Part shown: piece after piece, positions 39,947-55,874 of the stretch
Numbering within the stretch: position 1 is the stretch's first letter
Layout: each line of letters begins with the position of its first letter
From: a virus
Strand: one strand, 5' to 3'
Virus record (IMG/VR): IMGVR_UViG_3300025131_011243
Location: 58,592-122,591 of that record
DNA length: 64,000 nt
Program-made: the position numbers and the translations under genes
Notes under the pieces: model-generated
Databases searched by the model: none
What the model was told of the DNA's origin: nothing
What the model saw: the letters and a program-made list of their open reading frames with translations, nothing else

Positions 39947-40164
39947 GGCTATATCCTTACGGCTTGCCAGCTTCTTCGTCTATATTTGACACTTTTCTGC
40001 TACGACATCCTGTTCTTCTTCAGACATGTCGCCCCAACAATCGTCCATGCGATCTCTTATTTCATCGCCAGAGGGATCGTCGTCCGATTTGTTGTCCAAC
40101 AACTTGAAAAGTCGTATGTATTCTTTTTGATTATCATTCATCATAAATTCCCTTAGTTTTAAAG

Positions 40165-40255
40165 CGGAGACGCTGGGATTCGAACCCAGGAAGGAGCAAT
40201 TCAGCCCCTTAATTGATTAGCAGTCAATCGCCTTCAACCACTCGGCCACATCTCC
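40165..40255 (-). tRNA. tRNA-Ser(GCT)
   Basis: cloverleaf, ATTGA-CTGCTAA-TCAAT, long variable arm, G73, no CCA. Confidence 0.93.
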
Positions 40256-40304
40256 TAATTTACCTATCGTCATGAAATGAATTTTACCAGACATGTAAAC
40301 ACAA

Positions 40305-40395
40305 AGGAAGGTAAGGGAATCGAACCCTCGGACCCCATTTCTAGGACCACTGGTTTTCCAAACCAGCACGACTAACCAACATCCGTCTACCTTCC
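40305..40395 (-). tRNA. tRNA-Ser(GGA), non-canonical (U73)
   Basis: CTGGT-TTGGAAA-ACCAG, T-arm GTTCGATT, long variable arm. Confidence 0.8.
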
Positions 40396-40403
40396 AAGTA
40401 GAA

Positions 40404-40497
40404 AGGAAGGTAAGGGGATCGAACCCTTGTAACCCCTTGTTCAGGGGTTAACTGGTTTTCGAAACCAGCGCAACAAACCAACATTTGCCTACCTTCC
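40404..40497 (-). tRNA. tRNA-Ser(CGA), non-canonical (U73)
   Basis: CTGGT-TTCGAAA-ACCAG; paralog of the preceding tRNA. Confidence 0.8.
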
Positions 40498-40514
40498 AAG
40501 TTTTTCCAAACAAG

Positions 40515-40572
40515 AGGAGAGTATGGGATTCGTTACGGTTGCTTCGTTTTCCGAAGCTGTTCATAACTCTCC
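40515..40572 (-). pseudogene. tRNA-derived mini-hairpin
   Basis: acceptor GGAGAGU/ACUCUCC and 3' half of the T-arm retained; D and anticodon arms replaced by a hairpin. Confidence 0.5.
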
Positions 40573-40576
40573 TAAG

Positions 40577-40663
40577 CGGAAGGGACAGGAATCGAACCTG
40601 CATCACGCTTCTAACGTGAAACCGTTTTCAAGACGGCTTAGCCCGCCAATAGCAAGCCCTTCC
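40577..40663 (-). tRNA. tRNA-Ser(TGA), atypical D-arm
   Basis: GCCGT-CTTGAAA-ACGGT, long variable arm, G73. Confidence 0.8.
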
Positions 40664-40748
40664 TAAATATCTGTCGGGAATCCACGCTACTTGAGACCAT
40701 CTGCCCTTTTTTCAAAAAGCATTGTTTGTAGTAAATTTCCTTGGCCAC

Positions 40749-41075
40749 CTACTGCCCCCATCTCATTGCCAACATTCCTGCTACTACCAAACCCAAACCT
40801 GTCCATTGCCATCCGCTGAACTTGTCTCCCGCTCCCAAATAAAGCATAGTCAACGGAAAGACAAGAAAGATTATACTATCAAAAAGAAGCCCGTCAAACA
40901 ACTGCCTCTTTGAAATAATAGATATCAACACCCACCATTGACCTAAGGCTCCCCAAAGGAAAGCCGTCCATGCCCAGAGATGTCCGCCGTCCTGATTCAG
41001 CCTAAAGGTGAAGTAGTAGTAGACGGAATACCAAACAGCTATGCATGGGACCCACCATAAATAATGATACCACAT
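40749..41075 (-). CDS. small multi-pass membrane protein (SMR/DMT-like)
   Basis: four hydrophobic helices, QWTGLGLVVAG. Confidence 0.6.
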   Translation of the reverse strand: MWYHYLWWVPCIAVWYSVYYYFTFRLNQDGGHLWAWTAFLWGALGQWWVLISIISKRQLFDGLLFDSIIFLVFPLTMLYLGAGDKFSGWQWTGLGLVVAGMLAMRWGQ

Positions 41076-41111
41076 TTTGTTTCATCTCCGCCTCCTGTCG
41101 CTGCTTCAAAA

Positions 41112-41165
41112 AGGAAGGTAAGGGAATCAAACCCTTGGACCCCATTTCTAGGACCATTCGCTTCC
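41112..41165 (-). pseudogene. internally deleted copy of tRNA-Ser(GGA)
   Basis: 41110-41156 matches 40303-40349 with 2 mismatches; 5' GGAAG retained. Confidence 0.7.
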
Positions 41166-41176
41166 TGTTATTTAAG

Positions 41177-41268
41177 CGGATAGGGAGGGATTCGAACCCT
41201 CAGATCATCAAAGACGACCCCCTGATTAGCAATCAGGTGTCCCGCACCAGTGGGAATCCAGCCTATCC
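41177..41268 (-). tRNA. second tRNA-Ser(GCT), atypical
   Basis: CCTGA-TTGCTAA-TCAGG; 6-nt connector before the D-stem. Confidence 0.75.
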
Positions 41269-43834: not shown

Positions 43835-44482
43835 CTACTTGTAACTCCGAACCGCAAAGTCCTTTAGAGTTACGGACCAACTCTTCCAACGAGGGTTGTC
43901 CGAAAGAACGTAGTCCAAAACTTCCTCAGCCACAACCGTAACGACTAGCATTACGATATTTCGGGCCAAAGGATAGTCACAGACATCTCCATCTTCCGAA
44001 TTTGCCGGAACTTGGTAAACGCTGTCCCAAACGACTTCTCCATAGTCCTCGAACAAACCGGAATGCAAGCAATCGATCTTGTTCTTAGAACAATAGTCGT
44101 GGAGAACCTGCCGGGCCTCGCTGTTGTCGAACGCATCGATAACAAGCTTAGCACCCTTGAGTAACTTCTTGACGTTTTTTTCTTCAAGCTTCTTGTTTAC
44201 AACGTCGATTTCCACGCCAACATCCCTCCAGATACGATTTTGCAAAGCCGTAACCTTCAAAGCTCCAACGTCGTTGTCGCCATAGACTTGAGTGTTGACG
44301 TTATGTTCGTCAACTCGGTCCATGTCGATGACGCAGATATCGCTTACGCCCTGACGGATCAGGGTCTCTACCAAGTTGCTACCCAAAGCACCCGCACCGC
44401 AAACAACGATACGAACGCCCTTGAGACGATCAATCAGACCTTCTCCACGGTAGGCGATTTCATGTGTGAATTTCTTGGCCAT
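43835..44482 (-). CDS. ThiF/E1-like ubiquitin-activating enzyme
   Basis: GAGALGS, DMDRVDEHNVNTQ, LKV, DAFDN..AR, candidate catalytic Cys in DVCDYP. Confidence 0.9.
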   Translation of the reverse strand: MAKKFTHEIAYRGEGLIDRLKGVRIVVCGAGALGSNLVETLIRQGVSDICVIDMDRVDEHNVNTQVYGDNDVGALKVTALQNRIWRDVGVEIDVVNKKLEEKNVKKLLKGAKLVIDAFDNSEARQVLHDYCSKNKIDCLHSGLFEDYGEVVWDSVYQVPANSEDGDVCDYPLARNIVMLVVTVVAEEVLDYVLSDNPRWKSWSVTLKDFAVRSYK

Positions 44483-44901
44483 TTTTTCGCTTTCTTCATA
44501 ATGGGTCTAACAACTGTCGGCATAACCCCCACAATTCTTTTCTTGATCATTCGAATATGTCCCTCAACGAAAGGTTGTTCGTCGTCAAAGAACCAGAAGC
44601 ATCTTAGCCCATCTGCTCCCTTAATGCAACATACAAACGGTCTTCCTTCGGCAACTATCCAAGCATTCATAGTTAAGATGTCGGTTGTGCTGGGACTTGC
44701 AATCATTGAAGGATGGGTATGAATCCAACCAATCACTCGATCAGGATCTCTCCTGACAAGTTCATGGTTGAATCCAACCCTAGCTGGGATGCCCAATTCA
44801 TAAGAGATAGCGCTCGTAACCCAAACGGGTCCGTACAGATCTCCTACCAAGATGTAGGACTCTTCGTCGCCAGTATTCATATTGAACATCAATCGCTCCA
44901 A
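44434..44901 (-). CDS. JAB/MPN+ metalloprotease
   Basis: N-terminal Glu plus WIHTHP....PS..D JAMM motif. Confidence 0.85.
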   Translation of the reverse strand: MERLMFNMNTGDEESYILVGDLYGPVWVTSAISYELGIPARVGFNHELVRRDPDRVIGWIHTHPSMIASPSTTDILTMNAWIVAEGRPFVCCIKGADGLRCFWFFDDEQPFVEGHIRMIKKRIVGVMPTVVRPIMKKAKKWPRNSHMKSPTVEKV

Positions 44902-45824
44902 TCTCCAGTGTAATCGTCGGTTCCTCTATCGTCTACGTCAAGATAGTTCCCGCCAACTCGGTAAATCTGGTTGCCCGTAATACCCTCTCGGATAACGCCA
45001 ACCAAACTCTGCAAGTCGAAGTTCCTATCTCCACCAGACAAACAGATGCCCGCCGATTGAACAGCAAGCGTTTTCTTATCAACAGTCGAACGATGAGTTT
45101 CACCATCGACAACATACTCGACAGTATACGACTCGCCTCGCTCAACGAAACTCCTGAATCCGCCACCAGCACGATTGATTGCCGACTTTACTCGACCTTC
45201 TGCCGTAAGAGCTTCCGCCTCGACAGCAAGCCTCTTGGCTTCCTTTTCGGCCTCAACAACATCGACCAAAGCAAGGTCGTAAGCACGTCTCTGTTCCTTT
45301 GACATACTTGAAAAATCAACGTCCTTCGGGGCAACGTTTTCTGACAAGGCATTTCTCAATACAGTTGCATGCTTGATGCTATGAGCGTCGTCGATCCTTT
45401 CGAACCAACAGTTGATGCCATCGAATCTAACACGCACTGCATCGAACAACTGCAATTCTTCCGGCAAAAGAATAGGAACAAATCCTTGAATCTTGAACCG
45501 GGAATCACCTTCGTTTGCAGGGATACCCCAGAAACGGTTGTCCTGTCGCCTGGTTGCGATCAACCTTAGAACAGGGAACAGGTTGAAGTACGTTCGCCTC
45601 TCGATCATCGTAGGCTCACGTACAAACTCTGCGAGCTTGTAGGAAGCGGGACGGAATACGCCCCAACCCTCAAAACCTCTCGGCTTTGAAACCCGCAATG
45701 ACATAACGATGTCAGCAATCTTAACCCTGATCGCCTTATTGCGCAGAACAGGGCTGAAGAATTCCGACTTGAGGAAAACATCTTCTTCCGCTGCCAACTT
45801 TTTCAAAAGCTCATTGACCTTCAT
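44889..45824 (-). CDS. uncharacterised protein of the Ubl/TROVE operon
   Basis: 311-aa ORF; C-terminal SAGICLSGGD..FDLQSLVGVIRE. Confidence 0.8.
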   Translation of the reverse strand: MKVNELLKKLAAEEDVFLKSEFFSPVLRNKAIRVKIADIVMSLRVSKPRGFEGWGVFRPASYKLAEFVREPTMIERRTYFNLFPVLRLIATRRQDNRFWGIPANEGDSRFKIQGFVPILLPEELQLFDAVRVRFDGINCWFERIDDAHSIKHATVLRNALSENVAPKDVDFSSMSKEQRRAYDLALVDVVEAEKEAKRLAVEAEALTAEGRVKSAINRAGGGFRSFVERGESYTVEYVVDGETHRSTVDKKTLAVQSAGICLSGGDRNFDLQSLVGVIREGITGNQIYRVGGNYLDVDDRGTDDYTGDWSD

Positions 45825-45839
45825 GGCCTTACTCCAATT

Positions 45840-45870
45840 AAAACAGGGTAGCAGAAGCTACCCTGTTTTT
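45840..45870. terminator. intrinsic terminator after the TROVE gene
   Basis: AAAACAGGGTAGC-agaa-GCTACCCTGTTTT perfect hairpin with A/T tails. Confidence 0.75.
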
Positions 45871-45896
45871 CAAGTCAAAATGTAGCTCCTTCCGGA

Positions 45897-47441
45897 TTAC
45901 GCAACTTTCCTTTGAGGGAGAGTATACGACATAATTTCCATCAACAGATCGATCTTCGACGGCTTCGTCAAAAGCGGGATCAACCCCGGCAACGAGTAAT
46001 AGTCGCCGTTGAAGATATACGCATCGTAGTCGATGTCGTTATTGCGACATCGCTGTTCCAGCGTATCCCGATGCGTCCCGCACTTAACGAACAGAACGTT
46101 CGGACGAGTGTCCATATCCTTCATGTAGTTCAATATGCTGGACAAGAACGACGGAGATCGGTTCTCACCTTCGTCCGTAATCATGATGATGTTCTCGACG
46201 TACTGCTTGTTACGTCGAAGCATCTCAATTCCGACGCCGCAGGAAGTACATCCGGTAGCAAAGATGCCATTCAGAGCCTTTTCCCACGATGCCAAATCCG
46301 TTCCGCTCGAAACAATCGGATACGCCATTTCGTCACAAGCATAGACGAACAAATCAGCGTCCATGATTGCCGAAGTCATAGCAGCAATCTGCTTACCAAC
46401 TTCAATGGCGATGTTCATCGAACCGGACTTATCGATGATGATTGCCGTAGGACGCTTGATACGTCCCTTCGACTTCAACTGAGCATCACCGATGTCCTCA
46501 AGCTGCTTGGCAACGTCTTCGTCAATATCAGTAGTCTTCTTGACCTGGGACGCTTTCATAGCCGCAACACGCTTGCCCGTCTTTGCCTTGTCAAGACGTT
46601 CCTGAATGAACGCCTTGAGGTCCGGGTTGTCGAATGCACCACGACGCTTCAACGAACCGATGTTGTTGATCAACTCTTGGTCACTCATGACCTGAACCAA
46701 AGCCAAAAGAACGGTCGGACTCATTGCCGAGATTACCGTCGATGCGATTCGGTACGGAACCTTGTTGGCGATGATGATCTCAGCCTGCTTTGCAGCCGAC
46801 TCAGTCTTACGCAGTTCCTTAACCGCCTTCAACTTGCTGTCATCAGGCGGATCTTCATCGAAGAGAATCTTTTGCGCTCGATCCGAAGGCTCAATGTGGA
46901 GAAGAGAGTAAACCCTCTTCAACGACTTTCGAGCCTGCAAAACGCAAGCGTCGAACCAAACCGGATCGTCTTCACGATCAGTCAGGTATCGCTTAACTTC
47001 CGTTGCAACAGATCGAGGAATATTCTTGCCCAGACCAGAATCCGTCAAAGCCGTTCGATGAGTCGTCTTCTGGTTGCGGCCAGTTCCAGTCGTAACCGGA
47101 GTACTGACCTTTTTCTTGCGACCGTGAATGAAGTCGATAACTCTCTCCACCTGATAAGGCGGCAGTTCACGGAGCATGGCCAGTCCAACGTCTCGGTGTC
47201 CTTCGAAGTTGCTCAGACACAGGTTGACGATGAACAGTTCCTTATGGTCACGGATCTCGCCATTGTCAGCATACCATGCGCCCAAACGAACGTAGAACAA
47301 CGGATCTTGAGCAATCATCTGTTCATGAACAGGATGACTTGCGCTCAGATTTCTGTGGGGAGTCATCAACAGCGTATTCAGCATCCCCAAACGAAGATCC
47401 TGTTCACTGGACGTATCAACTTGTGCAGTTCGTACAGCCAT
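45897..47441 (-). CDS. Ro60/TROVE-like helical domain plus vWA protein
   Basis: N-terminal DPLFYVRL..W....EIRD, ELINNIGSLKRRG, C-terminal MIDAS IDKSGSM, TSCG, ITDEGEN; adjacent Y-like RNAs. Confidence 0.75.
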   Translation of the reverse strand: MAVRTAQVDTSSEQDLRLGMLNTLLMTPHRNLSASHPVHEQMIAQDPLFYVRLGAWYADNGEIRDHKELFIVNLCLSNFEGHRDVGLAMLRELPPYQVERVIDFIHGRKKKVSTPVTTGTGRNQKTTHRTALTDSGLGKNIPRSVATEVKRYLTDREDDPVWFDACVLQARKSLKRVYSLLHIEPSDRAQKILFDEDPPDDSKLKAVKELRKTESAAKQAEIIIANKVPYRIASTVISAMSPTVLLALVQVMSDQELINNIGSLKRRGAFDNPDLKAFIQERLDKAKTGKRVAAMKASQVKKTTDIDEDVAKQLEDIGDAQLKSKGRIKRPTAIIIDKSGSMNIAIEVGKQIAAMTSAIMDADLFVYACDEMAYPIVSSGTDLASWEKALNGIFATGCTSCGVGIEMLRRNKQYVENIIMITDEGENRSPSFLSSILNYMKDMDTRPNVLFVKCGTHRDTLEQRCRNNDIDYDAYIFNGDYYSLPGLIPLLTKPSKIDLLMEIMSYTLPQRKVA

Positions 47442-47491
47442 GGTCTTTCTCCTTAGAAAGAGTTTTACAAATTATCGATTCGGATTCGGAA

Positions 47492-47701
47492 TTAACCGAA
47501 TACAGCCTGCGGACGAAGAGTCATGTCACCGGTTTCTGCGTTGCGGTCAACAACGAAACCATTCATCTTGGTGAGAGGAGCACTGAAGTGATTAGCTACA
47601 GCCTGCTTGACGTCTTGGTCGGTAGAGAGATCGCCCACATCGATATCCTCGAAGAGAAGATCGAACGATTCTCCATTGTATCTGACGTGAAGTACTGACA
47701 T
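47492..47701 (-). CDS. ubiquitin-like (beta-grasp) small protein
   Basis: 69 aa, beta-beta-alpha-beta-beta pattern, ends in Gly (QAVFG), co-operonic with E1 and JAB. Confidence 0.75.
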   Translation of the reverse strand: MSVLHVRYNGESFDLLFEDIDVGDLSTDQDVKQAVANHFSAPLTKMNGFVVDRNAETGDMTLRPQAVFG

Positions 47702-47746
47702 TTTTCATCTCCTTTCGTCTGCAAGCCTCAAGAGAGGCATAAAAAA

Positions 47747-47878
47747 AGCCTTGTCTAAGTTTCAGGACGGTTTCTTGGGTAACGTGCAAGATTTGAACTT
47801 GCGACCTTCACTTCCTAATAGTGACGCTCAACCTACTGAGCTAACGTTTGTAACGTCCAAATTGTTGGAGACAAGGCT
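47747..47878 (-). ncRNA. Y-RNA-like RNA with nested tRNA-like domain
   Basis: terminal stem AGCCUUGUCU/AGACAAGGCU plus U-tract; inner D, anticodon (loop AUUAGGA) and T arms; shared motif. Confidence 0.75.
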
Positions 47879-47881
47879 AAG

Positions 47882-48016
47882 TGGGAGAGGTAGGAGTCGA
47901 ACCTACGAGTCTTGCGTTTTCAGGGCAATGCTTTACCAAAAGTTTGTAAGCTACATCCCATTGGAGACGGACAAGCCGTCTAAGTCAGAATAGCTATAGC
48001 ACTAAGCTACTCTCCC
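47882..48016 (-). ncRNA. tRNA-like (GAA anticodon) RNA with ~60-nt motif insert in the D-loop
   Basis: acceptor GGGAGAG/CUCUCCC, T-arm GUAGG-UUCGACU-CCUAC; insert ACUUAGAC..GUCUCCAA..UACAAAC. Confidence 0.75.
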
Positions 48017-48041
48017 ATAATTATTCAGTTTTCAAAAAGCG

Positions 48042-48112
48042 AACGTCCAAGTTCAGGCAGCGGTCAAAGCATTCCGAAGATTGGTTTGTATGCTGTCCTT
48101 GTTGGGGACGTC
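48042..48112 (-). ncRNA. stand-alone minimal Y-like motif RNA
   Basis: ACGUCCCCAA..CAGCAUACAAAC..GCUGCCUGAACUUGGACGU. Confidence 0.65.
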
Positions 48113-48126
48113 AACTTAATTTCAAG

Positions 48127-48268
48127 TGGGGGAGACAGGACTCGAACCTGTAGTCTTTCGCTTATGAGGCAAACGCTTTTCCATTTGTTTGTAAGCTACG
48201 ACCTATTGGAGACGAACAAGCCGTCTAAGTTGGAATAGCTGTTTAACGTAGTTTTTAGCTACTCCCCC
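48127..48268 (-). ncRNA. tRNA-like (CAU anticodon) RNA with motif insert in the D-loop
   Basis: acceptor GGGGGAG/CUCCCCC, T-arm ACAGG-UUCGAGU-CCUGU; insert nearly identical to that in 47882..48016. Confidence 0.75.
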
Positions 48269-48349: not shown

Positions 48350-48516
48350 AAGAAGAAACAGGCGTCCAAGTTCGAGCAGCGGTATGACATTAGTCACAGA
48401 TCTTAAATCTGTTGCCTTATCCACTTGGCTATACGTTCATGTTGGTGAACATAGTGGGATTCGAACCCACGTTGTTGTTTGTACGCTACGCCAGTAGGGG
48501 ACGCCGGTTTCTTCTT
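48350..48516 (-). ncRNA. Y-like RNA containing a circularly permuted tRNA-Leu(UAA)-like domain
   Basis: order T-arm, acceptor 3' strand + ACCA, loop, acceptor 5' strand, D-arm, anticodon arm, all within the motif stem. Confidence 0.75.
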
Positions 48517-48592
48517 CACTTGTCAAAGTCGAGCCTTACGACTCTGCCCTATCTTATCAGCTTCCCAGCCACTTTCAAGGGCAATATTCAAC

Positions 48593-48945: not shown

Positions 48946-48964
48946 TCGTTTCTCCTAAGTTAAG

Positions 48965-49046
48965 TGCGGAAGGAGGGACTTGAACCCTCAAGCCTTACGG
49001 CACTGGATTTTAAATCCAGCGTGTTTGCCAATTTCACCACTCCCGC
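48965..49046 (-). tRNA. tRNA-Leu(TAA)
   Basis: CTGGA-TTTAAAA-TCCAG, variable arm, A73. Confidence 0.93.
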
Positions 49047-49047
49047 T

Positions 49048-49518
49048 CTATTCATTCCAATCGCTGTCGATCATATCGTAAGGATCGAAACCCATTCTTT
49101 TCAACTTGTTCCAAAAGCGAATGTTATCTCGTTCTCTTTGTTCCTGTTTCTCCTCTTCCTTTCTAGCCCATTCTTCTCGATGCAATTTAATCTCTTCCAG
49201 CCTTGCCCTGCGACATTGGCTACACATGTTCCATAGGTATCTGCATCGCACATGAGGGTCAAGCTTCCGTCTTGCATGTTCGGTAAACTTGCTGCTATCC
49301 TTTTTGTTTGCCGTTTTCTTTACCTTGTACTGAGTCTTGCGATGCTTCTTCCAAGACCTTACGATGGTCGTTGAAACGTCGTCCCATGCGTCAGGCAACA
49401 TTCGGGGAGTCCTTTTCCCTCGAATCCTGTAACGCATTTCAGCATCTTCCATGTCCTCCAAGGACCCGTAGTAGCCACGACGTTCATTGGTCGTTGCGGG
49501 GGATCTGAAGTAACCCAT
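49048..49518 (-). CDS. hypothetical basic protein
   Basis: 156 aa, LPDAWDD..RSWKKHRKTQY. Confidence 0.7.
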   Translation of the reverse strand: MGYFRSPATTNERRGYYGSLEDMEDAEMRYRIRGKRTPRMLPDAWDDVSTTIVRSWKKHRKTQYKVKKTANKKDSSKFTEHARRKLDPHVRCRYLWNMCSQCRRARLEEIKLHREEWARKEEEKQEQRERDNIRFWNKLKRMGFDPYDMIDSDWNE

Positions 49519-49522
49519 TTTC

Positions 49523-49581
49523 GTATCTCCTATGCAAAGTTAAACACTTCACATAGGAGATACCGGCTTTGTCCTTTTCAT
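49523..49581 (-). promoter_or_regulatory. RBS-sequestering hairpin overlapped by a 10-aa uORF
   Basis: 12-bp perfect inverted repeat 49523-49534/49552-49563; uORF MKRTKPVSPM 49549..49581. Confidence 0.55.
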
Positions 49582-49597
49582 ATCTGTATCCTTTCAA

Positions 49598-49683
49598 TAC
49601 GGGCGAGAGGGGTCGAACCTCCATAGGATTTTACTCCCGCCAGATCCTAAGTCTGGTGCGTCTGCCAGTTCCGCCACGCCCGC
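49598..49683 (-). tRNA. tRNA-Leu(TAG)
   Basis: CCAGA-CTTAGGA-TCTGG. Confidence 0.93.
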
Positions 49684-49692
49684 TCTTTCAAA

Positions 49693-49778
49693 TACGGATA
49701 AGAGGAGTCGAACCTCCATGGGATTTTACTCCCGCTAGATTCTGAGTCTAGTGCGTCTGCCTATTCCGCCACATCCGC
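49693..49778 (-). tRNA. tRNA-Leu(CAG)
   Basis: CTAGA-CTCAGAA-TCTAG. Confidence 0.93.
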
Positions 49779-50270
49779 TCTTAAGTCATTTTTGTTCTTG
49801 TTCCTTCCTCCATATGTAGGAGTTTGACTATGACAATTTGGACATAGTAATCTAAGATTCCTTATGCGATTGTCTGTCCTGTCTCCGTTCTCGTGGTCCA
49901 AATGCATTGAAAGAGGTTCTCCATTCCACTCTGTTCCCATTCCGCATTTAGAACATTTTTCTTCCAGTTTGCCACATTCGATTAACCTTTTCTTAAGGTG
50001 GCAATTGTTGTATACGACTCCCTTTTTTAGGAGATCCCTTAACTCTCTCTTACTAGGTGGGCTCCATGTTTTATCAAGCTTTCTTCTAGATGCCTGCCCT
50101 AAAAAATGACTCGTATCTATCTTGAAGTTTTCAATCTTGCCCTTCAAGTGAGAATGATTCCCCCCTGAAGGAGCAAGCCCTATCTTCTCCAAAACCTGGC
50201 TAATGGAGAAAGAAGTAGCTACTGCCTCCTCCAGATCTTGGATAGAATACCTTTTCGACGTATGCTTCAT
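49761..50270 (-). CDS. HNH homing endonuclease in the tRNA cluster
   Basis: CSKCG..LDHENGDRTDNRIRNLRLLCPNCHSQT; stop codon lies inside tRNA-Leu(CAG). Confidence 0.92.
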   Translation of the reverse strand: MKHTSKRYSIQDLEEAVATSFSISQVLEKIGLAPSGGNHSHLKGKIENFKIDTSHFLGQASRRKLDKTWSPPSKRELRDLLKKGVVYNNCHLKKRLIECGKLEEKCSKCGMGTEWNGEPLSMHLDHENGDRTDNRIRNLRLLCPNCHSQTPTYGGRNKNKNDLRADVAE

Positions 50271-50333
50271 ATTGCACCTCCACTATTAGGTACAATATCT
50301 TATAGTAAACCTCCTTCACAATTTACCAATGAG

Positions 50334-50358
50334 GTTTGCCAGTTTCCGTCACCTGGGC
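50334..50358 (-). pseudogene. 5' fragment of a tRNA-Leu
   Basis: GCCCAGGTGACGGAAACTGGCAAAC, truncated in the D-arm. Confidence 0.55.
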
Positions 50359-50555
50359 TTTATTTTACCATGTTTGCCTCACGGATGCATCCTTTTTCTT
50401 GCCAAATTCTTTTTCTTCTGTCGAATTCAAAGGGATTCTATGATCCCGCAGGATGTCAAAGAGATTTCGTTTACCTTGCCGGTCTTCGGCTCTCTTACGG
50501 TCATAGTCGTCTCCTTCGTCGTTTGCTTGAGTTTTCATAGCAGTTCTCCTTTTAA

Positions 50556-50639
50556 TGCACCGGGTTGGATTCGAACCAACGTAGACTTTCGCCAACAGTT
50601 TGACAGACTGCTGCAACTCTCCAACTTTGCCGCACGCTC
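50556..50639 (-). pseudogene. degenerate long-arm tRNA with GTC anticodon
   Basis: D, anticodon and T arms fold but the acceptor stem has three mismatches. Confidence 0.55.
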
Positions 50640-50646
50640 TCAGTTA

Positions 50647-50684
50647 TTACAGCCTACCGGGCTCACCACCTGCCCAACTCGCCT
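50647..50684 (-). pseudogene. 5' half of tRNA-Tyr(GTA)
   Basis: AGGCGAG-TT-GGGC..GCCC-G-GTAGG-CTGTAA then breaks. Confidence 0.6.
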
Positions 50685-50697
50685 ATTAAGTTTCAAA

Positions 50698-50780
50698 TAC
50701 CCCTGACAGGAGTCGAACCTGTACGCCTTAATCGGCAGTAGGTTTTGAACCTACCGTGTCTGCCGTTCCACCACAGGGGC
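50698..50780 (-). tRNA. tRNA-Leu(CAA)
   Basis: GTAGG-TTCAAAA-CCTAC. Confidence 0.93.
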
Positions 50781-50791
50781 TCTGTTTCAAA

Positions 50792-50875
50792 AGGCCGCTG
50801 AGGGATTCGAACCCTCGATGGCTTAACGCCAGCGGATTTGCAATCCGCTCCCTTTGTCCGCTCGGGCAAACGGCC
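50792..50875 (-). tRNA. tRNA-Cys(GCA) with long variable arm
   Basis: GCGGA-TTGCAAA-TCCGC, U73, extra arm TGGC-GTTAA-GCCA. Confidence 0.85.
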
Positions 50876-55666: not shown

Positions 55667-55672
55667 GATAAA

Positions 55673-55874
55673 GACGTTTGGCTCCGTAAGCAGGATTCTG
55701 TTCTATGTCGTCATTTCTCTATTGGCCCTCTACCCGCCATCATAGTCATGCTCACCAACTCCGGCTGCTTGAGGTTGCTATCTCTGTGGTCCAAGCGGCG
55801 TTAGCCTCCCACATTAGAGCACTATAGTCCTGACTTTCCTCTGCGAATTGCAGCGACGACTCGAACCAAACGTC
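55673..55874 (-). ncRNA. rnpB: minimal RNase P RNA (~202 nt)
   Basis: CR-I GAGGAAAGUCAGGA and CR-V ACAGAAUCCUGCUUA form P4 with compensatory changes; P1, P2, P3, P5, P15 and L15 GGU fold. Confidence 0.88.

What the first reader, a model, noticed from the sequence alone, without database searches (positions are those of the whole stretch)
47882..48268. Two tRNAs (GAA and CAU anticodons) with near-identical ~60-nt D-loop inserts
Acceptor and T arms are intact and different between the two, but the inserts are almost identical (AGCUAUUCYRACUUAGACGGCUUGUYCGUCUCCAAURGKW/CGUAGCUUACAAAC). The inserts are too small for group I/II introns. The GAA element also has a C-C mismatch at the base of the anticodon loop. 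They could be decoys for anticodon nucleases, or tRNAs tethered to Ro.
Basis: seen in the sequence. Interest (0 to 1): 0.7.

Follow-up and report, generated by a model that had tools for sequence, protein, structure and literature searches.

The report
tRNA look-alikes carrying a Ro60-docking hairpin
Two tRNA-shaped RNAs of a giant marine phage carry, inside their D loop, the same hairpin found on the neighbouring Y-type RNAs next to the phage's Ro60-like gene, so they are most likely tRNA mimics of fixed anticodon identity held on that protein rather than interrupted tRNA genes.

Summary
On the minus strand, 48016-47882 (anticodon GAA) and 48268-48127 (CAU) are complete tRNA bodies with a ~54-nt module in the D loop. 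The module is 48/54 identical between them; the bodies are 48/73.

The insert is neither an intron nor a mobile element. It is a two-stem hairpin (ACUU / RGAC…GUCY / CCNAC, then UACAAAC) also found on three neighbouring Y-like RNAs in other topologies.

The five-RNA array lies just upstream of a 69-aa Gly-ended protein and a 514-aa protein. That protein has no Pfam hit alone, but its family profile and AlphaFold model match Ro60/TROVE+vWA.

A covariance model finds 20 such chimeras in the window plus 9 of 21 related phage loci. All six helices covary, including a D stem that spans the insert.

Anticodon loops stay canonical and anticodons recur (GAA in 5). Three related phages examined also carry ordinary tRNAs with the same anticodons.

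Best reading (0.68): a new architecture of tRNA-mimicking Y RNA that docks a tRNA look-alike onto phage Ro60. Binding, expression and charging are untested. No description appeared in four text searches of the paper library.

The parts
47882..48016 (-). Element A: tRNA-like body (7-bp acceptor, D stem 10-13/22-25, anticodon arm with GAA at 47919-47921, T arm UUCGA, discriminator A, no encoded CCA) with the module in its D loop
   Evidence: covariance model R1 125.8 bits; Rfam tRNA 33.2 bits, partial
47942..47995 (-). Module of A: stem 2, ACUU, stem 1 hairpin, CCAAU, stem 2, then UACAAAC
   Evidence: stem 1 100% paired, stem 2 87.1%
48127..48268 (-). Element B: tRNA-like body with anticodon CAU (48164-48166), discriminator A, no encoded CCA, and the same module in the D loop
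   Evidence: R1 132.5 bits; Rfam tRNA 35.4 bits, model positions 7-64 only
48187..48240 (-). Module of B
   Evidence: 48/54 identical to the module of A
48358..48505 (-). Y-like RNA 1: ends pair (7 bp) and carry the same motif. Inside is a permuted tRNA-like domain: T arm, acceptor-like hairpin with CCA in its loop, D arm, anticodon-like hairpin
   Evidence: Fold z -4.43; weak partial Rfam YrlA match, 19.8 bits against gathering 69; motif
48040..48112 (-). Y-like RNA 2: the same motif in end-pairing order, with no tRNA domain
   Evidence: Fold z -3.92; motif
47745..47878 (-). Y-like RNA 3: 10-bp basal stem with the same motif enclosing a 74-nt tRNA-like unit (UAG anticodon, 47777-47850), followed by a U run
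48551..48578 (-). Sigma-70-like promoter match upstream of the RNA array
   Evidence: 9 of 12, TG extension; a consensus match only
47492..47701 (-). 69-aa protein ending in Gly (ubiquitin-like candidate), between the RNA array and the Ro60-like gene
   Evidence: homologues upstream of the Ro-like gene in 13 of 21 loci; no Pfam hit
45897..47441 (-). 514-aa divergent Ro60/TROVE + vWA protein (MIDAS DxSxS at D337, S339, S341)
43835..45824 (-). Conserved downstream genes: 311-aa orphan (44889-45824), weak JAB (44434-44901), ThiF/E1-like (43835-44482)

Best explanation
The two elements belong to a conserved family of phage RNAs that fuse a tRNA to a Y RNA.

Each is a full tRNA body. It has a free 7-bp acceptor end, a D stem, a canonical 7-nt anticodon loop, and a T loop that can meet the D-loop GG. 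Between position 15 and G18 of its D loop sits a ~54-nt two-stem hairpin with a fixed internal loop (ACUU on one strand, CCNAC on the other) followed by UACAAAC.

The same module sits on three neighbouring RNAs, where it forms the end-pairing stem as in classical Y RNAs. All five RNAs lie on one strand in a row, between a promoter-like site and the Ro60-like gene.

Inferred: the module is the docking site for that Ro60-like ring. Each chimera would then be an adaptor that displays a tRNA look-alike of one identity (here Phe-type GAA and Met-type CAU) on Ro60.

By analogy with known Y RNAs, which tether Ro60 to an effector and gate its cavity, the tRNA part would bring Ro60 to a protein that reads that particular tRNA. 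Candidates are an anticodon nuclease or other tRNA-targeting defence, a synthetase, or a modification or repair enzyme. It could act as bait or as tether.

Shown here: the structure, its conservation and covariation, the shared module, the Ro60 fold of the neighbouring protein, and redundancy with ordinary tRNAs in relatives. Inferred: Ro60 binding, retention of the insert in the mature RNA, and the partner of the tRNA part.
For: 1. Structure. On a MAFFT alignment of six elements, the six-helix model is 95.8% paired against 79.2% in shuffles. Of 36 pairs, 21 have changes on both sides, against 2-5 when the partner is slid.

2. Family. Model R1 finds 20 full-length elements of 113-142 nt at 67.8 bits or more, in the window and 9 of 21 related loci. 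The next matches, at 53.8 bits or less, are ordinary 72-nt tRNAs. On the 20, 94.5% of cells are paired against 68.8% shuffled, and 31/36 pairs have double changes against 11-15 slid. The acceptor, stem 1 and the T stem are 100% paired.

3. D stem across the insert. Three of its four pairs covary. Two rival pairings show no signal: 67.4% paired against 68.4% shuffled, and 59.4% against 57.0%.

4. Shared module. The 5'-strand motif occurs 32 times in 22 sources, always on the Ro-gene strand and upstream of that gene. It occurs 0 times on the other strand, and shuffles average 1.8. Of the 32, 26 have a complementary CUU-flanked partner: 13 closed as a hairpin and 13 formed by RNA ends.

5. Neighbouring protein. 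A profile of 38 family members hits human RO60 at 1.4e-13, phage phiLo Ro60 at 5e-11, Xenopus Ro at 2.5e-9 and Deinococcus Rsr at 1.7e-6. The AlphaFold model has pLDDT 91.2, and its top 12 Foldseek hits are all Ro60/TROVE with TM 0.57-0.67.

6. tRNA-likeness under selection. Of 19 anticodon loops, 16 have U33 and 17 have A37. Anticodons recur: GAA x5, and CAU, UCU, CCU and GUU x2 each. All 15 elements with a D-loop GG have a UUCGA T loop, and 4 of the 5 without GG have UGCGA.

7. Not needed for decoding. Three related phages carry ordinary tRNAs with the same anticodons as their chimeras: Phe-GAA in G004, Arg-CCU in G001, and Arg-CCU, Asn-GUU and Phe-GAA in G003.

8. Literature. Bacterial and phage Y RNAs with tRNA-like domains next to Ro60 are established, and Ro60 contacts mainly a 5'-strand motif GGUCCGA, or GNCGAA in bacteria (PMC4201824, passages). 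Phage phiLo Ro60 binds two upstream Y-like RNAs (PMC12135203, passages).
Against: - No experiment or computation here shows that the module binds the Ro60-like protein.
- The protein alone has no Pfam hit, even at E 10.
- No Rfam Y_RNA or YrlA match covers A or B, and none reaches gathering in 10 related loci.
- The motif GUCYCCNAC only partly resembles the published GGUCCGA / GNCGAA.
- The module could instead bind the 69-aa or 311-aa protein, which co-occur just as regularly.
- A free acceptor end, a discriminator A and canonical anticodon loops are also what a working, chargeable tRNA would have.
- In this phage (26% complete) no ordinary tRNA-Phe or tRNA-Met was seen, so redundancy is shown only in relatives.
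- The D stem is alignable in only 12-14 of the 20 elements.
- The alignment of the 20 was fitted to the model, which favours the model.
Confidence: 0.68

Rival explanations
1. They are working, chargeable tRNAs (Phe, Met) used in translation. The D-loop hairpin is a retained expansion, for example a handle that shields them from host tRNA-targeting nucleases or marks them as phage tRNAs.
For: The elements have a 7-bp acceptor with free ends, discriminator A, canonical 7-nt loops with U33 and A37, and a D-loop GG with a UUCGA T loop. The phage has a PolyA_pol/CCA-adding family gene, which suits CCA-less genes. No ordinary tRNA-Phe or tRNA-Met was found in the 122.6 kb held.
Against: - Three related phages have ordinary tRNAs with the same anticodons.
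- Position 8 is A rather than U in 9 of the 20 elements.
- One family member lacks the anticodon arm altogether (L002:2130).
- Five lack the D-loop GG.
- A ~54-nt hairpin, let alone a bound 58-kDa ring, at the elbow would collide with ribosomal elbow contacts (general knowledge, not tested).
- The same module sits on RNAs that cannot be tRNAs, such as Y-like RNA 2.
Confidence: 0.15
2. The insert is an intervening sequence that is cut out and the halves rejoined, giving ordinary tRNA-Phe and tRNA-Met.
For: In A and B the insert is flanked by a direct repeat (GUAGCUUA in A, GUAGCU in B), so a precise deletion would give a cloverleaf. Rfam tRNA scores the 3' copy above gathering.
Against: - The flanking repeat is absent from homologues such as L002:1730, whose D-stem strand is GUUU.
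- Removing the hairpin would still leave a 23-nt D loop in A, and a repeat-mediated deletion a 14-nt one (read).
- The D-stem pairing that the deletion product would use shows no covariation signal (59.4% paired against 57.0% shuffled), whereas the stem spanning the insert does.
- UACAAAC and both stems are conserved as RNA structure and shared with RNAs that have no tRNA to restore.
- No group I, group II or ribozyme family matched at E up to 10.
- From recall: known bacterial and phage tRNA introns are group I introns in the anticodon loop.
Confidence: 0.05
3. The module is a docking site, but for a protein other than Ro60: the 69-aa ubiquitin-like protein, the 311-aa orphan or a host factor. 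In that case the Ro60 adjacency is only operon context.
For: The 69-aa, 311-aa and ThiF genes co-occur with the Ro-like gene in 13, 14 and 9 of 21 loci. The motif is not the published Ro60 motif.
Against: From Deinococcus to phage phiLo, the RNAs encoded beside Ro60 genes are its ligands (PMC4201824 and PMC12135203, passages). The end-pairing stem plus conserved 5'-strand motif is the Y-RNA layout. The motif also shifts between clades of the Ro-like protein: GUCYCCNAC, RUCCCAYAC in L006, GCGCCAUAAC in L017.
Confidence: 0.1
4. It is a small mobile DNA element or an assembly artefact that landed in two tRNA genes.
For: The inserts are near-identical (48/54) in bodies that differ more (48/73), with short flanking repeats.
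Against: Compensatory changes occur in both stems across 20 copies in 10 contigs. Four independent DNA runs carry the same sequence, with no insert-free joint. The insertion point within the tRNA fold is the same throughout the family.
Confidence: 0.02

Closest known systems
YrlA-type bacterial and phage Y RNAs (Rfam RF02553; Chen et al. 2014, PMC4201824; structure preprint 10.1101/312249)
   Same: Both are encoded beside a Ro60 homologue. Both combine a Ro60-type stem module with a tRNA-like D/T elbow, and both are thought to derive from tRNA. Y-like RNA 1 of this locus has the YrlA order of T arm, closed acceptor hairpin and D arm.
   Different: YrlA has a closed acceptor loop, no free CCA end and no anticodon loop, and its Ro stem takes the place of the anticodon stem (10.1101/312249, passages). 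A and B keep a free acceptor end and a full canonical anticodon arm, carry the module inside the D loop closed as a hairpin, and have a different 5'-strand motif. There is no Rfam match on A or B.
Thermus phage phiLo Ro60 with Yrl1/Yrl2 (PMC12135203; PDB 9KOP, 9L5Y)
   Same: A phage Ro60 with Y-like RNAs encoded just upstream. The protein here matches it by profile (5e-11) and by fold.
   Different: In the passages read, Yrl1 and Yrl2 are described as plain stem-bulge-stem Y RNAs with a CGAA motif, and no tRNA body or anticodon is mentioned. The protein here is only 13-14% identical over the structural alignment.
Canonical tRNA (Rfam RF00005)
   Same: Acceptor, anticodon and T arms, U33 and A37, the D-loop GG and a UUCGA T loop.
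   Different: The D loop is 77 nt in A and 85 nt in B, against about 7-11 (the usual range is recalled). ARAGORN does not call them. Half of the family has a non-U base at position 8.
Chargeable tRNA mimics: tmRNA and plant-virus tRNA-like structures
   Same: A tRNA-shaped domain with a free acceptor end, joined to a second functional module.
   Different: Those lack a true anticodon arm of defined identity and do not carry a Ro60-type module (10.1101/312249, passages). Charging of A and B is untested.

Membership tests
Canonical tRNA (RF00005) | Cloverleaf found by standard tRNA finders | tested here: not met
   ARAGORN lists 11 genes and neither A nor B. Rfam scores 33.2 and 35.4 bits (gathering 29), but only over the 3' two-thirds, with a wrong or missing acceptor.
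Canonical tRNA (RF00005) | 7-bp acceptor, 5-bp anticodon stem with 7-nt loop (U33, purine 37), and T arm | tested here: met
   A has a C-C mismatch at the loop-closing pair.
Canonical tRNA (RF00005) | D loop of normal size | tested here: not met
   The D loop is 77 nt in A and 85 nt in B, module included.
Canonical tRNA (RF00005) | Aminoacylation and use in decoding | not testable with these tools
   Needs a charging assay or polysome analysis.
YrlA (RF02553) | Match to the Rfam covariance model at gathering score (69 bits) | tested here: not met
   No match on A or B at E up to 10. The neighbouring Y-like RNA 1 reaches 19.8 bits. There is no match at gathering in 10 related loci.
YrlA (RF02553) | Closed acceptor-like hairpin, no anticodon loop, Ro stem in place of the anticodon stem | tested here: not met
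   A and B have free acceptor ends, a full anticodon arm and the module in the D loop. The definition comes from 10.1101/312249.
YrlA (RF02553) | Encoded next to a Ro60 homologue | tested here: met
   protein; recurrence in related loci.
Y RNA in the broad sense (Ro60-bound small RNA) | Stem carrying a conserved 5'-strand motif of the GGUCCGA / GNCGAA type | tested here: inconclusive
   A conserved motif GUCYCCNAC…UACAAAC exists (32 sites). It shares only GUCC with the published motif.
Y RNA in the broad sense (Ro60-bound small RNA) | Physical binding to Ro60 | not testable with these tools
   Needs a gel shift, pull-down or structure.
tRNA intron (group I, or archaeal bulge-helix-bulge) | Catalytic intron fold or bulge-helix-bulge junction; the usual site is the anticodon loop | tested here: not met
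   No intron or ribozyme family matched at E up to 10. The insert is ~54-60 nt, lies in the D loop, and its stems are conserved as a hairpin. I did not run a formal bulge-helix-bulge scan.
Ro60 / TROVE + vWA (for the 514-aa protein) | Sequence-family match | tested here: inconclusive
   Alone it has no Pfam hit and reaches only E 0.19 against two TROVE chains. A family profile hits RO60 at 1.4e-13 and three other Ro60/TROVE sequences at 1.7e-6 or better. Pfam vWA_Ro60 is found in 12 of 38 members.
Ro60 / TROVE + vWA (for the 514-aa protein) | Helical-repeat ring plus vWA fold with a MIDAS motif | tested here: met
   The model has pLDDT 91.2, and the top 12 Foldseek hits are all Ro60/TROVE over the full length. 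D337, S339 and S341 are invariant.

The most novel reading that the evidence does not exclude
These are chargeable tRNAs that carry a protein ring. On this reading, the phage keeps a small set of anticodon-specific aminoacyl-tRNA look-alikes (Phe, Met, Arg, Asn and others) permanently docked on Ro60. The set would serve as sentinels or bait for host systems that cut, modify or count particular tRNAs. The adjoining ubiquitin-like / E1 / JAB module would then act on whatever the bait captures. That would give tRNA-mimicking Y RNAs their first defined, anticodon-level specificity.
Probability: 0.2. Interest if true: 0.88.

Novelty: new variant of a known kind. Interest (0 to 1): 0.72.

Why it matters
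Y RNAs that mimic tRNA have been known since 2014, but what their tRNA part is for is still open. In the passages I read, the known ones lack both an anticodon loop and a free acceptor end, so the partner was suggested to read the elbow (10.1101/312249).

This phage family keeps the anticodon loop and the acceptor end, moves the protein-docking module to the elbow, and reuses a few anticodons across phages. That points to partners that read anticodon or acceptor identity.

It turns the question into a direct experiment: which host or phage protein binds a Ro60-docked Phe-type or Met-type mimic?

It also shows that standard tRNA finders miss or mis-score this class. Finally, one RNA module can evidently be placed at three different positions of a tRNA scaffold.

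Tried and rejected
- Phage GenBank collection: blastn of the 901-nt region found no match.
- Single-protein locus search with the Ro-like protein found no relative. The 38-row alignment was too diverse to seed a search. A 9-row alignment worked.
- RtcB and Rnl2-type RNA ligase are not found in the 122.6 kb held. The record is 26% complete, so this says little.
- Link to the miniature RNase P RNA. It is confirmed at 55671-55872 (72.1 bits, below gathering 100). Only 1 of 5 related chimera-bearing phages has such a match, and none of the 4 that are at least 98% complete. I dropped the idea that it exists to process these RNAs.
- Are the chimeras recent copies of the phage's own tRNA with the same anticodon? 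No. Identity is 61-73% over the 3' part, no better than to other tRNAs.
- Two rival folds were rejected for lack of covariation. One was the MFE helix between nt 5-12 and the 5' strand of stem 2. The other was the Rfam-style D stem that uses the second GCUU.
- The ESM Atlas gave nothing usable for the 311-aa protein.
- Expression: no RNA holder is listed among 20 runs. This is no evidence either way.
- The strict hairpin pattern gave 8 loci in viral contigs. Six lie in contigs I already held, and the two new ones have no chimera. In genome contigs it gave 7 loci. Only L045 has a chimera, with the same length, GC content and score as L007:1803, so it is probably the same phage.
- Papers. Four searches found no description of a Y-type module in a tRNA D loop. 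Two reviews (PMC10870794, PMC6047535) were not held. Supplementary tables of Chen et al. 2014, which list phage Y RNAs, were not seen and could bear on novelty.
- Complex prediction was not used, because it does not take RNA.
Full report
**What is there.** The window is bases 58592-122591 of a 122.6-kb IMG/VR virus record that CheckV rates 26% complete. Its relatives are phage contigs of 340-572 kb, and DNA runs that hold the stretch are marine.

On the minus strand, two elements have perfect 7-bp acceptor stems. Element A runs 48016-47882 and element B runs 48268-48127. Each also has a 5-bp anticodon stem with a 7-nt loop (GAA in A, CAU in B), a T arm with UUCGA, discriminator A and no encoded CCA. 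A has a C-C mismatch at the pair closing the loop.

Between the acceptor and the anticodon arm lie about 90 nt instead of a normal D arm. ARAGORN reports 11 tRNA genes in the window and neither of these. Rfam tRNA scores them 33.2 and 35.4 bits, but only by starting at an internal second copy of GUAGCUUA.

The shared 24-nt core occurs twice, against 0.00 expected. The module is 48/54 identical between A and B, while the tRNA bodies are 48/73 identical. Contigs from four other DNA runs carry the inserts unchanged, and none skips them.

**The insert is a module shared with neighbouring RNAs.** Three further structured RNAs flank A and B on the same strand.
- Y-like RNA 1 (48505-48358): its ends pair, and it encloses a permuted tRNA-like domain.
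- Y-like RNA 2 (48112-48040): a plain stem-loop RNA.
- Y-like RNA 3 (47878-47745): a 10-bp basal stem around a 74-nt tRNA-like unit, followed by a U run.

Their folds have z-scores of -4.43, -3.92 and -2.74.

All five RNAs carry the same signature. One strand reads GUCY-CCNAC, then about 10 nt, then UACAAAC. The other reads ACUU-RGAC. The GUCY and RGAC parts pair.

In Y-like RNAs 1-3 this helix is formed by the two RNA ends, as in classical Y RNAs. In A and B it is closed by a 5-nt loop, so the whole module is a hairpin.

Over the window and 21 related loci, the 5'-strand motif occurs 32 times. All lie on the Ro-gene strand and upstream of that gene, none lie on the other strand, and shuffles average 1.8. 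Of the 32, 26 have a complementary CUU-flanked partner: 13 in hairpin order and 13 in end-pairing order.

**The neighbouring protein is a divergent Ro60.** Downstream of the array come a 69-aa protein ending in Gly and then a 514-aa protein.
- Alone, the 514-aa protein has no Pfam hit even at E 10. Its only PDB sequence hits are two TROVE chains at E 0.19.
- It belongs to a family of 901 representatives at E 1e-3 or better.
- A profile of 38 members hits human RO60 (1.4e-13), phage phiLo Ro60 (5e-11, residues 22-399 on 60-431), Xenopus Ro (2.5e-9) and Deinococcus Rsr (1.7e-6).
- Twelve of the 38 members hit Pfam vWA_Ro60.
- The AlphaFold model has pLDDT 91.2. Its top 12 Foldseek PDB hits are all Ro60/TROVE over the full length, with TM 0.57-0.67.
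- A MIDAS DxSxS motif is invariant.

The 69-aa gene, a 311-aa orphan and a ThiF/E1-like gene accompany the Ro-like gene in 13, 14 and 9 of 21 loci. A weak JAB match lies between them.

**A conserved family with covariation.** In the related loci I found homologous tRNA-like elements carrying the same hairpin. One of them, L002:1730, has a D-stem 5' strand GUUU that can only pair with AAAC on the far side of the insert. That suggested the module sits inside the D loop.

I tested this on a MAFFT alignment of six elements. The six-helix model (acceptor, D stem spanning the insert, stem 2, stem 1, anticodon stem, T stem) is 95.8% paired against 79.2% shuffled. Of 36 pairs, 21 change on both sides, against 2-5 with the partner slid.

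The covariance model built from it finds 20 full-length elements at 67.8-132.5 bits. They lie in the window and in 9 of 21 loci: L001, L002, L003, L004, L006, L007, L009, L010 and L011. Fourteen of the 20 were not used for training. The next matches, at 53.8 bits or less, are ordinary tRNAs.

On the 20:
- 94.5% of cells pair, against 68.8% shuffled.
- 31/36 pairs change on both sides, against 11-15 slid.
- The acceptor, stem 1 and the T stem are 100% paired.
- The anticodon stem is 96.8% paired, stem 2 is 87.1% and the D stem is 76.9%, with three of its four pairs covarying.

This alignment was fitted to the model, which favours it. The D stem is alignable in only 12-14 of the rows.

Two rival pairings show no signal. 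One is the MFE helix of nt 5-12 with the 5' strand of stem 2. The other is the Rfam-style D stem that uses the second GCUU. The direct repeat in A and B is therefore a coincidence between the generic tRNA 8-13 sequence and the end of the module. It is not a splice or target-site signature.

**The tRNA part looks selected to resemble a real tRNA.**
- Of 19 anticodon loops, all are 7 nt, 16 have U33 and 17 have A37.
- The anticodons are GAA x5; CAU, UCU, CCU and GUU x2 each; and AUU, UCC, UGA, UUU, GCA and ACA once each.
- One element has no anticodon arm.
- Fifteen of the 20 keep a GG in the D loop after UACAAAC, and all 15 have a UUCGA T loop. Of the 5 without GG, 4 have UGCGA. This fits a real D-loop/T-loop elbow in A and B.
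- Position 8 is U in only 11 of the 20.

**They are not needed for decoding, at least in relatives.** I checked three related phages, 98%, 67% and 100% complete. Each carries ordinary tRNAs with the same anticodons as its chimeras: Arg-CCU in G001; Arg-CCU, Asn-GUU and Phe-GAA in G003; and Phe-GAA in G004.

The chimera bodies are not recent copies of those tRNAs (61-73% identity).

In the present phage, only long-arm Ser, Leu and Cys tRNAs were found in the part that is held. Redundancy is therefore not shown for this genome.

**Interpretation.** The evidence is: the same module on classical-looking Y RNAs; the position beside a Ro60-fold gene; recurrence of the pair; and a motif that shifts between clades of the protein (RUCCCAYAC in L006, GCGCCAUAAC in L017).

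Taken together, the most economical reading is that the module docks the phage Ro60 and that A and B are Y RNAs whose effector part is a whole tRNA look-alike.

Published YrlA RNAs have a closed acceptor and no anticodon loop, and their Ro stem replaces the anticodon stem (10.1101/312249, passages; PMC4201824, passages). Here the acceptor end and anticodon loop are kept and the module projects from the elbow region.

That suggests a partner that reads anticodon or acceptor identity. Candidates are a tRNA-targeting host nuclease, a synthetase, or a repair or modification enzyme. This last step is inference. So are Ro60 binding and retention of the module in the mature RNA.

The phage encodes a PolyA_pol/CCA-adding family protein outside the window, so CCA addition is plausible.

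**What it is not.**
- Not a group I or II intron or a known ribozyme: no family matched at E up to 10.
- Not a member of Rfam YrlA or Y_RNA.
- Not a mobile-element scar or an assembly artefact.
- The link to the phage's miniature RNase P RNA does not hold across relatives.

**Novelty.** Ro60 homologues with Y-like RNAs are known in phages: mycobacteriophages, CcrColossus, Bacillus phage G and phiLo (PMC12135203, passages). A jumbo-phage survey mentions TROVE proteins with a tRNA-like partner (PMC7824862, passages).

Four searches found no description of a Y-type module inside the D loop of a complete tRNA body. Two reviews and all supplements could not be read.

I therefore rate it a new variant of a known kind, and score interest at 0.72.

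I reached the same reading from my own calls before looking at those notes, and tested it here.

Noticed in passing
window 48358-48505 (-): Y-like RNA 1 holds a circularly permuted tRNA-like domain. The order is T arm, acceptor-like hairpin with CCA in its loop, D arm, then an anticodon-like hairpin with UAA in anticodon position. This is the YrlA order, but it reaches only 19.8 bits against Rfam YrlA (gathering 69).
   Followed up: partly
window 47745-47878 (-): The 'tRNA-Leu(UAG)' that ARAGORN calls at 47777-47850 is a short-arm, 74-nt unit embedded in a long Y-type stem that ends in a U run. It is probably another tRNA-like Y RNA and the end of the RNA operon, not a stand-alone tRNA gene.
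   Followed up: partly
window 43835-47701 (-): The Ro60-like gene sits among four other genes: a 69-aa Gly-ended ubiquitin-like candidate, a 311-aa orphan, a weak JAB (23.8 bits, cut-off 25) and a ThiF/E1-like gene (1e-31). The 69-aa, 311-aa and ThiF genes recur with it in 13, 14 and 9 of 21 related loci. This links Ro60 with a ubiquitin-like conjugation or sulfur-carrier set.
   Followed up: partly
window 55671-55872 (-): A 202-nt match spans the whole bacterial class A RNase P RNA model (367 positions) at 72.1 bits, below gathering 100, E 4.9e-22. This is a miniature RNase P RNA. A similar match occurs in only 1 of 5 related phages (G003).
   Followed up: partly
window 40164-41268 and 48964-50875 (-): Apart from the Y-embedded 74-nt 'Leu(UAG)' unit, all tRNAs that ARAGORN calls here are long (82-94 nt): five Ser, four Leu and an 84-nt tRNA-Cys(GCA). 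One Ser(UGA) scores as tRNA-Sec in Rfam (48.2 bits, gathering 47). No short-arm stand-alone tRNA was found in the 122.6 kb held.
   Followed up: no
L034:503-595 (G004) and L039:513-587 (G001): Two related giant phages carry tRNAs with anticodon CUA, which ARAGORN calls 'Pyl'. These are possible amber suppressors, which hints at stop-codon recoding in that phage group.
   Followed up: no
G000:C1:17353-17787 (-), outside the window: A 562-aa open frame matches the PolyA_pol / CCA-adding nucleotidyltransferase family (80.6 bits). This fits a phage whose tRNA-like genes encode no CCA.
   Followed up: no
L006 1300-2950 (+): This related 340-kb phage has at least 10 copies of a variant motif (RUCCCAYAC…UACAAAC) upstream of its Ro-like gene. 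That is a much larger Y-RNA array, including three D-loop chimeras.
   Followed up: partly
window 49761-50270 (-): An HNH endonuclease open frame (HNH_3, E 7e-6) sits inside the tRNA-Leu cluster.
   Followed up: no
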